A DNA stretch of 64,000 bases from Gammaproteobacteria bacterium (GCA_035546635.1 DASZWJ010000034.1:159548-223547), one strand, 5' to 3'. Counted from the first letter of the stretch, positions 26,201 to 32,200 are shown. Program-made: the numbers.

Positions 26201-29200
26201 TTAATATTGTCTTCAGTTAGGCGGCCTTGGCCGGTGATACGTTTTAAACTTTGGGTTAATTTTTCTGTTAGGGAGTCGAACATAGGTTTCCGTTAAAAAT
26301 AATGGGATAATGTGATATTGTGAACGTTTGTTATGGCTGTGTTGTGTCATTATACCTTGAACTTATTTATCGGAGAAGATTAAAGTCATATGCACGTTAT
26401 ATTACCCATTGTGTGCATCTTGCTCTATCTTTTTTCAGCTACAACCCAGTATCTGGGTTTGCTGGGTCGATTCCGGCATACCGGCTTACTTGTGATGGTG
26501 TCAGGCATTCTGGCTGTATTGACCCATGGTGAGCTATTGCATAGCTGGATTGACTTGGCTATTGGCCAGAATCTCACTTTTTTTAATATGTTTTCCTTCA
26601 TCATTTGGCTGATCTGTCTTTGGGTACTCTTGGGGACGGTGCGGCATCCTTTACAGAATTTATGCGTATTTACTTTCCCTTTGGCGGCGCTTTCGGTGTT
26701 GTTAGCGGCCGTTTTTCCTGGGTATTATGTATTGCACACAGCACAAAATCCCAAACAATTAATTCACATTTTGACTGCAGCGGTCGCATTTAGTGTATTG
26801 GGTGTAGCTGCGTTTCAGACTGTATTGTTACGCATTCAAGAGGGTTTATTGCGGCGTAATTATGTGGGGAATTTTATTGAAAAATTGCCTCCTTTGGAAA
26901 CGATGGAGCGATTGTTGTTTCAAATGATAGGGTTAGGATTTTTTCTATTGACGCTAGTATTAATTACGAGTATGTATTTTTTTAATGATTTGTTTAAACT
27001 ACCCTTGCTCCAAAAAACGATCTTGGTGCTGATTATCTGGGTTATTTTCGCAGTTCTGCTGGTGGGGCGTTATTTTTTTGGTTGGCGTGGGCGTAAAATT
27101 GTGTATTACACGTTTAGCGGGTTTATTTTATTGACGGTGGTTTACTTTAGTAGCTAAAAGAAAAAGTATTCTAATATAGGGAAAAGGGGCATTGAGTCAT
27201 ATCCATTTATTGATTATAGCATTAATTGCTCTGATACTGATTTCGGGTTTTTTTTCAGGTTCAGAGACAGCCATGATGGCGATCAATCGCTACCGGTTAC
27301 GCCATTTATTACGGAAAAATCATAAAGCGGCTAAGCGAGTTAGCCAGTTGCTTGAGCGTCCTGATCGGTTGCTGGGGGTGATACTGATTGGTAATACTTT
27401 TGCGAATATGTTGGTGTCTGCAGTCGCTACAGTGATTGCTATCACATTGTTTGGGAAGGTCGCGGTGGTTCCTGCCACGATAATCGTTGCATTGCTGGTG
27501 CTTATTTTTGCTGAAATCACGCCAAAAACCTTGGCAGCTTTACAACCTGAGCGTTTCGCATTTCCAGCATCATTTATATTGCGGTTGTTGTTGAAACTGA
27601 CTTATCCAGTGGTATGGGTAGCCAGTAGTATTTCCAATAATTTTTTAAAGCTGTTCAAAGTGAATATTAGGAAAAAAACCACCGATGATTTGACGGGTGA
27701 AGAAATACGTACCTTGGTATTTGAGTCCGCCGGTCAATTAGCGATGGGTTCTAAGCACATGATGTTGGGTGTTTTAGACTTAAGTGCTATTACGGTGGAT
27801 GATATCAAAGTGCAGCGCAATGATATTGTAGGGATCAATCTGAATGACCCATGGTCAGCTATTTTGCAGCAGCTTTCCACCAGCCAGCACACCCGTTTGC
27901 CAGTATTCCGAGAGGACATCAATAATGTGCAGGGCATTTTGCATTTACGCAAGGCATTAAATTTGGCAGCCTTGGGTCAATTAGATGAAGAAAAGCTGTT
28001 GTCGATCCTGGAGGAGGTTTATTTTATTCCTGAAGGTACATTGCTGAATGTACAGTTGGTCAATTTTAAATTGCAAAAGCGCCGCATGGGTTTGGTTGTA
28101 GATGAATATGGTGATATTCAGGGTTTATTGACCTTAGATGACATTTTAGAGGAGATTGTGGGTGAGTTTACGACCAATTTACCGGGGTCGCAAAAGCACA
28201 TCAAGCAACTACGTGATGGGAGTTTTCTTGTCGATGGTGGGATGAGTATCCGCAGTTTGAATCGTGAAATGCATTGGGTATTGCCAATCACTGGTCCAAA
28301 AACTTTAAGTGGTCTTATTGTGGAAAGTCTTGAGATTATTCCTGACTCTGGTGTCTGTTTAAGTATTCATGGATATCGGATGGAAGTGCTCCAAACTGAA
28401 GAGAATACAGTTAAATTAGTGAAGATTTATCCGAAATAAAGTGTGTGGGAATTTAGGATTTCGCTCCTTTTTCAAAGGTGTGAATAATGACTGGATTTTA
28501 AGGAGAGTTGATAATGACGGCGAATACCGCGAATAAAAAAGGCTATTTATTACCAAATTTACGTGCTTTCACATTGATAGAAATGCTGATGATCTTGGTA
28601 GTTCTGATGAGTTTGTTAATATTTGTAGTACCGGCGGGTCGTGATTTTTTGGGTCAGCATCGCGCCATTGCTGGAGCCAATAGAATTGTCGGTGGTTTAT
28701 ATTTGGCGCGTAGTGAAGCAGTTCATCGAGGTCAGAAGATTATTTTTTGTAAAAGCGTGGATGGTAAAACTTGTGGTGGTAATTGGAGTGATGGACAACT
28801 TATTTTGGATGAAAAAGGCAATGTGCTGCGGCGTTTTCCAGCATTACCCGTGCAAGATACATTAATTTGGAACAGCAGCGCAGGTAAAGATGAAAAAGTT
28901 GAGTGGTTGCCTACGGGTTTTACCAATGGTCAGCGCGGTACATTTTATTATTGTGCGGGTCATTCTAATGCAACGTATTCACAGGCCATTGTTTTATTAA
29001 ACACGGGACGCCTGTATGTTTCACCGATTGAGGTTCAGGATTATGCTAAGTATTGTCCACAAGGTTAGAAATTTGGTTGTATAATTTAAATAGTGATATT
29101 ATTTTGTTAATGATATATCAAATACAGAGGGTGTATAGATTATGATACGAACAGTTATTAGCTTATCTGAATCAGATAAAGAATGGATTATTAAGCAGGC

Positions 29201-32200
29201 AAAAAAAATCATACCACAATAACTGCAGTTATTCGTTTAGCTGTCAGACAATATCGTAAAGAAGCACAGCAACGACAGACTAAGCCCGCATCTTTTAAAA
29301 ATCTTTTGCATAAAACTGCAGGGATTTGGAAATCGGGAGATGGTCTGGATTTTCAGAAAAAAATAAGAGATGAATGGAAATAAAATGACTAAATTTTTAT
29401 TGGATTCTATTCTGTCATTATAATTGATCATTTAAATAATATTCCCGATGCTGCTGAATTTATTGAGAAAAATTATGAGATTAGCTTATTGTCTGTGATT
29501 ACTCGTGCTGAAGTGCTAGTAGGTGTCATTCATGAGGATAGTATTAACGTAAAACGATTTTTGGATTTTTTTGAAGCGGTGCCGATTACTTTAGAAATAG
29601 CTGATTTAGCTGCGGAACTGCGCAATAAATATAAATGGCGATTGCCTGATGCTTTGCAGGCTGCTATTTGTACATATTATGATCTTACTTTGGTAACGCG
29701 AAATACTAAGGATTTCTCATCTAAGAAACATCATTTTGTATACATTCCTTATCAAACTCACTACAACTAGAAAACTCCAAGAATGCAATTTAAAAATTCG
29801 TCAATCTCTTCCAGCATATTATCAAAATCAGGATTATAACTTAACCGTTGCATGGTATGCAGGGATAAATTTTTTTTACTGATGCTGCCGTTATAGATTT
29901 TTTTATCTATCGGAATATTATGCTGATAGTGTGCAAAATCCTGATAAACACCCTGTGCGCCATAATAATAATTGTCTGGAGCAAAAGGCATGCAAGTATG
30001 AGAAAAATCCAGAATATTTTTTTCTGGAAAGTAACTGGTTCTTTGTTTGATGCGCGGGTCAGTTACAACAATCGGTTGCGGGGTGTAAAGCAATAAACGG
30101 CTCTGTGGATTAGGTAGTTGTTTGAAAAGATCAAGAACGCCATCAGCTATGACGGTTTCATCAGTAGTGCTTTGTGTGATAAACAAAGGCATCTTTAAGG
30201 GTTTTTTTTGCAATAATGCGTGGGTTTCTCTGGCTAGTTTGCAACCCTGGAAAGCCGCATTAAAACAAAAAGATTCATATTTAGTATAACTTTTTTGCGA
30301 ATTTCTTCGATACCATTTTAAGTTGGGGAATAACCAGTTAATTAATTTAAGTGATTGGCCTAGATAAGCAAGTCGGCAGCGCCAAAGTTTTATTGCCGGT
30401 GCGAACAGTATTAATCCGCGAACTTCAGGATGTCTGATGGCTTTGTGTAAAGCCAAGGTGCCGCCTAATGAGAAGCCGCCAATAAAAATTTGTTCTACTT
30501 CTTGTTGTAAACTCGCAAAGCCATAATCCACAACTTTGATCCATTCATTACGTTTTATATTCAATAAATCACCTGGAACGGTTCCGTGTCCAGGTAATAA
30601 TATGCTGCGAACAATAAATCCTTGGCTTAAAAGATGTTTGCCCAGATCCATCATTGAGAAAGGTGAGTCGTATAATCCGTGTATCAGTAAAATTCCTCGT
30701 TTAGGTTTGTGAGGGGATGGAATCCAATTATAAGGACTGTTTGCAGTTAGGATATTATCTTGATTGGTTGGCGTGATATCAATTCTGGCATTTTTGAGCA
30801 TGCCTTGTGTTTGCTGTATATAATCAGCGAACGTTATGGAATTATTATGGAATTGGCTGTTTAAATTTGTGGGGTGTAATAGTCGTGGGTCGATGTTCAT
30901 TGGATATTATTAGCGTATGAAAATTTATATTTGCAAAAATGATTTATGTCTATTATATGTTCAGATTGATGACTTACTTTAACCTAAATTTGCCCCTGCT
31001 GTCATCCTGGATCATGACAGCCAATGCTGCTCAGGATGGCAGCTGAAGAGAAACCATGCCATTTAACCCTGAAATTTTAAAACAGCATTTAGATTTCTGT
31101 CGCCCCACTCAGGTACTAGTTGCCTATAGTGGTGGTCTGGATTCACATGTATTGTTGCATAGCATAGCTAGCTTGCGTAGGTTGCATCCGCAGTTGGAAA
31201 TGCGTGCTATACATATCAATCATGGTCTTAGTCCTAAAGCGCAAGATTGGGCAGAGCATTGTCGCCAAGTATGTCAGGCGCTCAATATAACTTTTCTAGT
31301 CAAATCTGTTGATGTCAGGCAGCATTTAGCCAATTGGAGTCTGGAAGAAGCGGCGAGAAATCTGCGTTATGAGGCATTAGCGAGTGAAATGCGCGTTGGA
31401 GAGTATCTATTGTTGGCGCATACCGAGGACGATCAGGCGGAAACTTTGTTGTTGCAATTACTGCGGGGTTCAGGTGTCAGAGGGTTAGCGGCCATGCCAT
31501 TAGCTAAGCCATTTGCTACAGGTAGTTTAATCCGGCCGTTATTACACATCAGCCGCAAGGCGCTCCAGCATTATGCGATCCAGCATCAGTTAACCTGGGT
31601 GGAAGATGAATCTAACCTGCTGCTTACCCTGGATCGCAATTATCTACGCCACCAAGTACTACCACCGCTGGCAACACGCTGGCCGCAAGTCAAAAAAGTG
31701 CTATCACGGGTAGCAAAGCATTGTGCTGAGGCTGTCGAGTTAGTGGAAGAGTTGGCTGCAGTGGATTTATCGCAGGCCGGCGGAGAGCTTCCGCATACAC
31801 TTTCTGTTGCTGCTTTGGTGAAGTTATCTCCGGCTCGACAGAAAAATGTACTGCGTTTTTGGCTCAAGAGCTTGCAGCTTCCAGTCCCCAATGCCAGTCG
31901 GCTCGCACAATTGCAACAGGATTTTTTGTATTCTAAAGAACATAGAACCCCGAAAATGACTTGGTCTGGAGTTGAGATAAGACGTTTTAATGATAGTTTA
32001 TATGCAATGCCAGCACTGCCCGCTCATGATGCGAAAATAGTTTTCTCTTGGGATATGACACAACCGTTAGTGATACCGGGTTTGGGAATATTAACCGCAA
32101 AACCTGGTGAGGAAGGGGTGGAAATTTTAGCGGGGGCGGAAGTAACAGTGCGTTTCCGGCAGGGGGGAGAGCGATTTCATCCCTTGGGTCGTAGTGGTTC

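What the first reader, a model, noticed from the sequence alone, without database searches (positions are those of the whole stretch)
28508..30900. Lone FimT/GspH-like minor pilin next to a doubly frameshifted RHH-PIN TA module and an alpha/beta hydrolase
A type IV pilin-like gene is not embedded in any pilus or T2SS operon in this window. It is followed by a VapB(RHH)/VapC(PIN) pair in which both genes are broken. The antitoxin breaks at an A8 homopolymer, where slippage could in principle restore the frame. The toxin breaks by a 1-nt indel after codon about 8. A convergent GxSxG hydrolase follows. The cluster looks like decaying accessory DNA. The poly-A frameshift also raises the possibility of phase-variable antitoxin expression.
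Basis: seen in the sequence. Interest (0 to 1): 0.5.

Follow-up and report, generated by a model that had tools for sequence, protein, structure and literature searches.

The report
Dead toxin-antitoxin cassette beside orphan pilin
A small toxin-antitoxin cassette that slipped in between two conserved housekeeping-neighbourhood genes (an orphan FimT/FimU-like minor pilin and a serine hydrolase) has recently been knocked out by two genuine frameshifts; this is ordinary gene decay, not a switch.

Summary
Window 28514-29068 encodes an intact GspH/FimT-family minor pilin, the only prepilin gene in 64 kb. Window 29142-29770 is an RHH-PIN (VapBC-type) pair with both genes broken. Window 29767-30900 (minus strand) is an intact GxSxG alpha/beta hydrolase.

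The antitoxin lost 1 nt at the A8 tract (29201-29208). The toxin is broken by a 5-bp tandem duplication (ATTCT|ATTCT, 29404-29413), not by a 1-nt indel.

Both lesions are identical in two Logan assemblies of different sequencing runs, so assembly error is unlikely.

A related MAG (L003) has the same gene order with an intact pair (79 and 124 aa). More distant relatives have the pilin and hydrolase back to back with no TA. So the pilin and hydrolase are conserved core genes under purifying selection. Only the low-GC TA cassette is accessory: it was inserted recently and then inactivated.

Phase variation is unsupported. The toxin is dead whatever the antitoxin's frame. No intact allele is on record. 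None of 76 homologous loci has a frameshifted antitoxin.

An orphan fimT is already described in Legionella. Interest is low.

The parts
28514..29068 (+). Intact orphan minor pilin of the GspH/FimT/FimU family, 184 aa. The ORF could also start at TTG 28508. It has an 18-aa leader, Ala at -1, FTLIE, two Cys pairs (C79/C87 and C147/C181) and a C-terminal NTGRLY.
   Evidence: Pfam GspH E 9e-13. NCBI names it a GspH/FimT family pseudopilin, HVV69371.1. The AF2 model has pLDDT 85.7. The best PDB fold match is FimU 4IPU at E 2.5e-6, then EpsH, then FimT 7QYI at E 1.2e-2. It is conserved in 8 related MAG loci, always as the only prepilin gene within about 8 kb.
29056..29120 (+). Presumed TA promoter and operator. 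The promoter-like site is TCCACA-18-TATAAT (29056-29085). It is followed by a TGATAT repeat (29094 and 29111) and the 10-bp palindrome TGATATATCA (29111-29120). The function is inferred.
   Evidence: Promoter-like site with a 10/12 match. The palindrome is read directly from the sequence. The TGATATCA core is kept in L003.
29142..29383 (+). RHH (VapB-like) antitoxin pseudogene. The reading frame is lost by a 1-nt deletion at or next to the A8 tract 29201-29208. The frame-0 product stops at 29222 after 26 aa. The rest of the gene runs to stop 29381-29383 in the frame reached by a -1 shift.
   Evidence: The repaired 80-aa protein is 84% identical to the L003 79-aa antitoxin. L003 reads GCG-A8-T in frame, and the window reads GC-A8-T. 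Pfam RHH_1 scores 18.1 bits, below the 20.5 cut-off.
29201..29208 (+). A8 homopolymer, the site of the antitoxin frameshift.
   Evidence: It is identical in L001 and L002.
29385..29770 (+). PIN (VapC-like) toxin pseudogene. A 5-bp tandem duplication after codon 8 leads to a stop at codon 13. The 91-96-aa remnant that annotators call (for example GTG 29495 or TTG 29489 to 29770) lacks the first strand, which carries Asp7.
   Evidence: The repaired 126-aa protein hits Pfam PIN at E 5e-12. It is 74% identical to the intact L003 toxin P0002.
29404..29413 (+). ATTCT|ATTCT tandem duplication that breaks the toxin.
   Evidence: position; 5-column gap in L003 and L004.
29767..30900 (-). Intact alpha/beta hydrolase, 377 aa, of the Hydrolase_4/S33 type. 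The putative triad is S144 (in GFSLG), D247 and H301. It is convergent with the toxin, and the two stop codons overlap.
   Evidence: Pfam Hydrolase_4 E 1.6e-16. S144, D247 and H301 are invariant in 4 orthologues. It is syntenic in L003, L006, L007 and L010.

Best explanation
Two conserved chromosomal genes flank a recently acquired type II toxin-antitoxin cassette that is now dead. The two genes are an orphan GspH/FimT/FimU-family minor pilin and a convergent serine hydrolase. The cassette has an RHH antitoxin upstream of a PIN-domain RNase toxin, which is the VapBC type.

How the intact module would work (inferred from the family): the RHH antitoxin dimer binds the palindrome in its own promoter. 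Its conserved C-terminal tail (GIWKSGDGLxFQKKxRDEW) neutralises the PIN nuclease.

In this lineage the toxin was inactivated by a 5-bp tandem duplication. That leaves a 12-residue peptide, or an internal restart product without the first catalytic Asp. The antitoxin lost 1 nt at a poly-A tract, which leaves 26 residues.

Because losing the antitoxin alone would free an active toxin, the toxin lesion most probably came first, or both lesions are tolerated because the toxin is dead. This ordering is inferred. There are no further stops or indels, and Ka/Ks is still well below 1, so the inactivation is recent.

The pilin most likely is a working minor pilin of a type IV pilus whose other genes lie elsewhere in the genome. 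It could be a FimT-like DNA-uptake pilin, but that is not shown. The pilin is unrelated to the TA.
For: - Gene identities.
- The lesions are defined against intact homologues L003 and L004 by DNA and protein alignment.
- The lesions are identical in Logan assemblies of two separate runs.
- Synteny: L003 has ffh-ccsA-CNNM-pilin-RHH(79 aa)-PIN(124 aa)-hydrolase-tilS-pyrG-kdsA-eno. L006 and L010 have the same order without the TA. There the pilin end and the hydrolase end are 8 bp apart or overlapping.
- GC is 0.33 over the TA against 0.40-0.48 in the flanks.
- The same TA (73% aa identity) sits in a different context in L004, between a GT2 gene and mnmA.
- Ka/Ks against L003: pilin 0.05, hydrolase 0.135, RHH 0.13, PIN 0.22.
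- All 76 homologous loci with an upstream antitoxin match have it in a single frame.
- The exact repaired proteins are not in the 15-billion-protein collection.
- Orphan fimT is the documented state in L. pneumophila (PMC8897410).
Against: - No read-level data could be inspected, so minority A9 or un-duplicated alleles in the population cannot be excluded.
- The two Logan runs may be the same read sets that were used for the MAG. They are independent in method, but perhaps not in data.
- The order of the two lesions is inferred, not shown.
- The A_AAA_AAA context is a classical -1 slippery heptamer. A -1 shift there would yield exactly the full-length antitoxin, so some full-length antitoxin may still be made.
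- Pfam RHH_1 is just below its cut-off.
- The pilin's partner machinery is not in the window, so its functionality is inferred only from conservation.
Confidence: 0.85

Rival explanations
1. Phase-variable or recoded antitoxin. The A8 tract would work as a contingency repeat through replication slippage between A8 and A9. Alternatively it would work as a transcriptional-slippage or -1 ribosomal frameshift site (A_AAA_AAA). Either way full-length RHH protein would be made in a fraction of cells or transcripts. It could serve as an orphan regulator or as an anti-addiction factor against incoming related VapC toxins.
For: The A8 tract lies exactly at the break. In frame 0 the tract reads GC[A AAA AAA] ATC. 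A -1 slip there gives ...QAKKNHTT..., which is identical to the repaired protein (sequence; the slipperiness of this heptamer is general knowledge from dnaX and IS elements). A promoter-like site and a Shine-Dalgarno sequence are still present. The rest of the antitoxin frame has no further damage.
Against: The cognate toxin is independently dead. The intact orthologue L003 has the same A8 in frame, so the tract simply encodes Lys-Lys-Asn and the frameshift is derived. None of 76 homologous loci has a split antitoxin. There is no A9 allele in three assemblies, and the repaired protein is not in the 15-billion-protein collection. No downstream stimulatory structure was looked for or seen.
Confidence: 0.05
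2. Sequencing or assembly artefact. Both genes would be intact in the real genome, and the two frameshifts would be consensus errors of the MAG.
For: The source is a metagenome-assembled genome. One lesion lies in a homopolymer, which is the classic error site. No reads could be examined.
Against: Logan assemblies of two different runs, made with a different assembler, are base-for-base identical over 4.9-7.6 kb including both lesions. A perfect 5-bp tandem duplication is not a typical sequencing error. Flanking genes in the same contig show no frameshifts.
Confidence: 0.05
3. Functional island. The pilin, TA and hydrolase would form one mobile accessory unit, for example a TA that stabilises a pilin/hydrolase islet, and the whole unit would now be decaying.
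For: The three elements are adjacent, and GC is somewhat lower from 28200 to 31000 (0.36-0.42) than further out.
Against: The pilin and hydrolase are adjacent without any TA in L006, L007 and L010. They sit in a conserved housekeeping order down to about 50% protein identity. Both are intact with low Ka/Ks. No integrase, tRNA gene or flanking direct repeat was found around the region.
Confidence: 0.05

Closest known systems
VapBC-type type II toxin-antitoxin modules with an RHH antitoxin and a PIN toxin (e.g. FitAB of Neisseria gonorrhoeae; VapBC of enterics and Leptospira)
   Same: A small RHH gene lies immediately upstream of a PIN gene of about 125 aa (antitoxin stop 29381-29383, toxin ATG 29385). 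There is a palindrome in the promoter region. The family is large and scattered across metagenomes (2334 hits). The cassette sits in intergenic spots between housekeeping genes.
   Different: Both genes are frameshifted here, so it is a pseudogene pair. The score against the only named equivalog model (Leptospira VapC, NF047863) is 27.7 against a cut-off of 140, so it belongs to another VapC subfamily whose RNA target is unknown. The antitoxin scores below the Pfam RHH_1 cut-off.
FimT, the orphan DNA-binding minor pilin of Legionella pneumophila (lpg1428; PDB 7QYI; PMC8897410)
   Same: It is in the GspH/FimT Pfam family. It has a class III signal peptide with Glu5. It is encoded alone, far from any other pilin or pilus-machinery gene. 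There is a Gly-Arg in the C-terminal strand region at the place where the GRxR motif would be.
   Different: It is only about 15% identical in the structural alignment, with fold-match E 1.2e-2, which is weaker than to FimU. The motif is GRxY/S/K, so the second Arg is missing across the family. It has a D-region Cys pair (C147/C181), which Legionellales FimTs lack. DNA binding is untested.
FimU of Pseudomonas aeruginosa (PDB 4IPU/4IPV) and the T2SS pseudopilins GspH/EpsH (2QV8, 4DQ9)
   Same: FimU is the best structural match (E 2.5e-6, TM 0.72-0.74 normalised to the target, 20% identity). It is also the only globular-domain sequence hit in the PDB (E 0.005). Like FimU, this pilin has a C-terminal Cys pair placed to form a disulphide.
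   Different: In the set studied in PMC8897410, fimU always heads a fimU-pilVWXY1E operon, and gspH lies in a gsp operon. Here no such gene lies within the 64-kb window (28.5 kb upstream and 35 kb downstream of the pilin), nor within 8 kb in 8 relatives.
Simple-sequence contingency loci (phase-variable genes with homopolymer tracts)
   Same: A homopolymer of 8 A lies inside the coding sequence at the point of frame loss.
   Different: No length variation was seen. The tract is in frame in the orthologue. The functional partner is dead, so neither phase has an obvious phenotype.

Membership tests
PIN-domain VapC toxin | Match to the PIN domain model above its curated threshold | tested here: met
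   The repaired 126-aa sequence scores 46.9 bits on PF01850 against a cut-off of 23.6, E 5e-12.
PIN-domain VapC toxin | Conserved acidic active-site residues, including the N-terminal Asp in strand 1 | tested here: met
PIN-domain VapC toxin | An uninterrupted reading frame encoding the whole domain | tested here: not met
   A 5-bp duplication at 29404-29413 causes a stop at codon 13. The longest remnant (91-96 aa) lacks D7. It is therefore a pseudogene of the family, not a functional member.
RHH (CopG/VapB-type) antitoxin | Match to a ribbon-helix-helix model | tested here: inconclusive
   PF01402 scores 18.1 bits against a cut-off of 20.5, E 0.0025, over residues 3-40 of the repaired protein. 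There is no NCBIfam hit.
RHH (CopG/VapB-type) antitoxin | Encoded directly upstream of, and co-conserved with, the toxin | tested here: met
   In 76 homologous loci a single-frame antitoxin match lies just upstream of the PIN gene. Most have the RTIISL..DK.WL N-terminus, and those examined keep the G.W..GDGL.YQ...R.EW tail.
RHH (CopG/VapB-type) antitoxin | Intact reading frame | tested here: not met
   There is a 1-nt deletion at the A8 tract, giving a 26-aa product.
GspH/FimT/FimU minor pilin family | PF12019 domain plus a class III (prepilin) signal with Glu at position 5 of the mature protein | tested here: met
   PF12019 scores 49.1 bits against a cut-off of 21. The signal is RA|FTLIEM. 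Position -1 is Ala in most family members rather than the usual Gly. The N_methyl motif scores 15.9 bits, below its 21.2 cut-off.
FimT (DNA-receptor minor pilin) | Orphan genomic location (the criterion used in PMC8897410 to separate FimT from FimU) | tested here: met
   It is the only prepilin gene in the 64-kb window and within ±8 kb in 8 relatives. No PilC/PilX/PilW-type neighbours were found.
FimT (DNA-receptor minor pilin) | C-terminal GRxR motif | tested here: not met
   The window has G165-R166-L167-Y168. The family consensus is NTGRxY, and the variants are S or K, never R, at the fourth position.
FimT (DNA-receptor minor pilin) | DNA binding and a requirement for natural transformation | not testable with these tools
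   This needs EMSA or MST with purified protein, or genetics in a cultured relative.
FimU / GspH | Location at the head of a fimU-pilVWXY1E operon (FimU) or inside a gsp operon (GspH) | tested here: not met
   No such genes are in the window or in the related loci, although the fold is closest to FimU.
Phase-variable contingency locus | Repeat-length polymorphism among cells or strains that switches the frame | tested here: not met
   A8 is the same in the MAG and in two Logan assemblies. No A9-type protein is in the collections. There were no hits to a variable-length pattern in JGI metagenomes. Read-level heterogeneity could not be tested.
Programmed frameshift gene | The frameshift is conserved among homologues | tested here: not met
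   None of 76 homologous antitoxins is split between frames. L003 has the same A8 tract in frame.

The most novel reading that the evidence does not exclude
The A8 tract sits in a perfect A_AAA_AAA -1 slippery context, and a -1 slip would yield the exact full-length protein. The broken antitoxin may therefore still be made at a low level, or in a subpopulation. It could be retained as an orphan RHH factor, for example as an anti-addiction protein that neutralises related VapC toxins arriving on mobile elements. That would be a slippage-tuned antitoxin remnant.
Probability: 0.04. Interest if true: 0.4.

Novelty: new member of a known kind. Interest (0 to 1): 0.12.

Why it matters
It matters little beyond annotation. 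The locus is a clean, datable example of how a VapBC-type cassette enters an intergenic spot between core genes and is then silenced by two slipped-strand mutations, probably toxin first. It also shows that the lone pilin is a conserved orphan FimT/FimU-like gene of an uncultured gammaproteobacterial clade, not debris. That pilin is a reasonable candidate when looking for type IV pilus or competence functions in that clade. The TA pair should be annotated as pseudogenes, not as a 91-96-aa 'PIN domain protein'.

Tried and rejected
- An exact look-up of the 186-aa TTG-start pilin found nothing, because gene callers use the ATG start giving 184 aa.
- The repaired antitoxin and toxin were looked up by exact sequence and are not in the collection.
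- A homologue search with the repaired antitoxin gave only 2 hits, a limit of the word index, and no 100% allele.
- A scan of JGI metagenome contigs for the antitoxin with any 7-10-nt tract found nothing.
- P0142, which is listed in the hydrolase's cluster, turned out to be an unrelated 56-aa protein, so that look-up was wasted.
- PDB sequence searches with the pilin mostly match only the N-terminal helix of major pilins. FimT 7QYI was not found by sequence.
- An Rfam scan of 26000-33000 found nothing in the finding's region.
- The repeat search found no direct repeats flanking the TA that would mark an insertion mechanism.
- The idea that the toxin break could be bypassed by ribosomal slippage was considered and rejected. 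There is no slippery motif near 29404-29413, and an early slip would replace the Asp7 region.
- The lower Ks of the TA (0.6-0.7) compared with its neighbours (1.1-1.8) was noted. It was not interpreted, because the genes are short and the neighbours' Ks values are saturated.
- The taxonomic order of the MAG could not be established. Every source labels it only 'Gammaproteobacteria bacterium'.

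
Full report
**What is in the sequence**

Window 28380-31100 holds four genes.

1. A pilin gene on the plus strand. It runs from ATG 28514 (AAGGAG lies 8 nt upstream; the ORF list starts it at TTG 28508) to stop 29068, giving 184 aa.
2. A short ORF at 29142-29222 (26 aa). Its continuation lies in another frame and runs to stop 29381-29383.
3. An ATG at 29385 whose frame stops after 12 codons. The continuation, in another frame, runs to stop 29768-29770.
4. A 377-aa ORF on the minus strand at 29767-30900.

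tilS follows at 31056-32384.

**Gene identities**

- The pilin matches Pfam GspH (PF12019) at 49.1 bits against a cut-off of 21.
- With one A added to the A8 tract, the antitoxin is an 80-aa protein with a sub-threshold RHH_1 match (18.1 bits against 20.5).
- With 5 nt removed, the toxin is a 126-aa PIN domain protein (46.9 bits against 23.6).
- The minus-strand gene is a Hydrolase_4/S33 alpha/beta hydrolase (E 1.6e-16) with the motif GFSLG.

**The two lesions**

The repaired toxin finds 2334 homologues. The two closest intact ones are P0002 (74% identity) and P0003 (73%). They lie in loci L003 and L004, each with an intact antitoxin of 79-81 aa directly upstream.

DNA alignment of the three loci shows the following.

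- Antitoxin. L003 reads GGC-G-AAAAAAAA-TCAT (Ala-Lys-Lys-Asn-His, in frame). The window reads GGC-AAAAAAAA-TCAT. One nucleotide has been lost at or next to the tract at 29201-29208.
- Toxin. The window has TTGG-ATTCT-ATTCT-GTC where L003 and L004 have a 5-column gap. This is a perfect 5-bp tandem duplication at 29404-29413.

Removing one copy of the duplication gives MTKFLLDSVIIIDHLNN. This matches the family consensus, in which L5, D7, S8, V9, I12, D13 and H14 are nearly invariant.

Apart from these two lesions, both repaired frames are free of stops. They align end to end with the intact orthologues at 84% and 74% identity.

**Are the lesions real?**

The hydrolase protein is also found on Logan assemblies of two different runs, SRR12170517 (L001, 7570 bp) and SRR12170511 (L002, 4910 bp). 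Both are 100% identical to the window, including the A8 tract and the duplication.

The window itself is contig CAYLQX010000027.1 of GCA_964386165.1, a MAG labelled Gammaproteobacteria. NCBI annotates the pilin, a 96-aa PIN fragment and the hydrolase as consecutive proteins, with no antitoxin between them.

A 5-bp duplication is not a usual sequencing error, and the flanking genes are unbroken. I could not inspect reads, so I leave a small residual probability (about 0.05) for an artefact.

**Context and history**

L003 comes from a related organism and has the same gene order: ffh(-), ccsA-like, CNNM/CorC, pilin (85% identity), RHH, PIN, hydrolase(-) (76%), tilS, pyrG, kdsA, eno.

A scan of one genome per species found 8 further loci with this pilin family (32-68% identity). 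All are uncultured Gammaproteobacteria or proteobacteria MAGs.

- In L006 and L010 the order ffh-ccsA-CNNM-pilin-hydrolase-tilS-pyrG-kdsA-eno is kept, but there is no TA. The pilin end and the hydrolase end are 8 bp apart in L006 and overlap in L010.
- L007 also has the hydrolase directly after the pilin.

The TA region has GC 0.33 against 0.40-0.48 around it. A 73%-identical copy sits in an unrelated context in L004, between a GT2 gene and mnmA.

The cassette therefore entered the pilin-hydrolase intergenic spot in a recent common ancestor of the window organism and L003. It was then inactivated only in the window lineage.

Ka/Ks against L003 is 0.05 for the pilin, 0.135 for the hydrolase, 0.13 for the RHH gene and 0.22 for the PIN gene. 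The pilin and hydrolase are thus under purifying selection, and the TA spent most of the divergence time as functional genes.

The hydrolase keeps S144, D247 and H301 invariant across four orthologues. 'Decaying accessory DNA' applies to the TA only.

**The lone pilin**

A six-frame scan for the prepilin motif finds only this gene in 64 kb. The one other match lies inside a PIN protein.

The neighbours examined in the rest of the window are mostly housekeeping genes: nnr, tsaE, amiB, a sigma factor, htpG, miaA, hflX, hflKC, purA, pncB, ffh, pyrG, kdsA, eno, ispDF, surE, mutL, ETF genes and arg genes. The same scan on the 9 related loci again finds only the one pilin within about 8 kb.

An orphan position is what Braus et al. 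describe for fimT in L. pneumophila: it 'appears entirely on its own'. They used orphan status to tell FimT from FimU, which in their set was always in a minor pilin operon (PMC8897410).

The assignment to FimT is nevertheless incomplete.

- The AF2 model (pLDDT 85.7) matches FimU of P. aeruginosa best (4IPU, E 2.5e-6). EpsH/XcpH come next, and FimT 7QYI is weaker (E 1.2e-2).
- The FimT hallmark GRxR appears as GRLY here, and as GRx[Y/S/K] across the family.
- There is a D-region Cys pair, which Legionellales FimTs lack but other FimT and FimU proteins have.
- Position -1 of the signal is Ala in most members rather than Gly.

I therefore file it as a divergent orphan member of the GspH/FimT/FimU family. 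It may be FimT-like in role, but that is not shown.

**Phase variation or recoding**

The tract is in the frame-0 context GC[A AAA AAA] ATC. A -1 slip, or one extra A in the transcript, would give exactly the full-length antitoxin. This is why the idea cannot be dismissed on sequence alone.

Several results argue against it.

- The partner toxin is independently dead. Any restart or slip product lacks or disrupts the Asp7 strand.
- The A8 tract is present in frame in L003, so it is simply Lys-Lys-Asn coding sequence.
- Among 80 homologous TA loci fetched from metagenomes plus L003 and L004, all 76 with an antitoxin match have it in a single frame.
- No A9 allele appears in three assemblies, in an exact-sequence look-up among 15 billion proteins, in a homologue search, or in a pattern scan of JGI metagenomes.

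I give this reading about 0.05.

**Mechanism, with status of each step**

Shown:
- the identities of the four genes;
- the nature and position of both lesions;
- their presence in independent assemblies;
- the insertion of the TA into a conserved gene order;
- the intactness and constraint of the pilin and hydrolase.

Inferred from family knowledge:
- the RHH dimer represses its own promoter (TCCACA-18-TATAAT at 29056-29085) through the palindrome TGATATATCA at 29111-29120;
- the antitoxin's conserved C-terminal tail blocks the PIN RNase;
- the toxin was lost first, which made the antitoxin dispensable.

**Verdict**

This is an ordinary, recently pseudogenised VapBC-type cassette lying between two conserved genes. 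One of those genes is an orphan minor pilin of a kind already described. It is a new member of known kinds, and interest is low.

Noticed in passing
window 32394-32569: A 176-nt nested inverted repeat lies between the tilS stop and the pyrG start. Its arms are 32417-32473/32479-32535, enclosed by 32394-32410/32553-32569. It folds at -74.7 kcal/mol with z = -12.7 against shuffles. It is single-copy in the window. Both Logan contigs break exactly at 32424. The tilS-pyrG gap in L003 is only about 84 nt, so this looks like an inserted MITE-like or hairpin element. Rfam gives only a sub-threshold miRNA-precursor-like hit.
   Followed up: partly
window ~46652-47164 (+), next to argH (47169-48647, -): A second PIN toxin (135 aa) with a 68-aa upstream partner, apparently intact. 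The genome therefore carries at least one other VapBC-like pair wedged between housekeeping genes.
   Followed up: no
window ~55000-55270 (L016 3385-3657): A lone 90-aa MazE/AbrB-type antitoxin-like gene (PF04014) with no obvious toxin partner called next to it.
   Followed up: no
window 28514-28570 and alignment A4: The prepilin cleavage site has Ala, not Gly, at position -1 in 11 of 15 family members (RA|FTLIE). The leader is long, about 18 residues. This is unusual for substrates of the PilD-type peptidase and was not explained here.
   Followed up: no
window 29767-29770: The toxin stop (TAG 29768-29770) and the hydrolase stop (CTA 29767-29769 on the minus strand) overlap within the palindrome CTAG. 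In L003 the two genes are 10 nt apart.
   Followed up: no
window 3135-6596 (+) and 14558-16576 (+): Two large ORFs (1153 aa and 672 aa) have no Pfam domain on record or in the scan.
   Followed up: no
L003 (ENA ERZ25073694 ctg125912) 5002-5765, 5855-7100, 11263-12920: The matches to ccsA-like, CNNM and pyrG are each split into two pieces in this relative. This suggests indel errors or frameshifts in that assembly, although its TA pair is intact.
   Followed up: no
window 29142-29770 vs L003 7759-8375: Synonymous divergence of the TA genes (Ks 0.6-0.7) is about half that of the flanking genes (1.1-1.8). This could reflect saturation or noise in short genes, or a later exchange of the cassette between the two lineages.
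   Followed up: no
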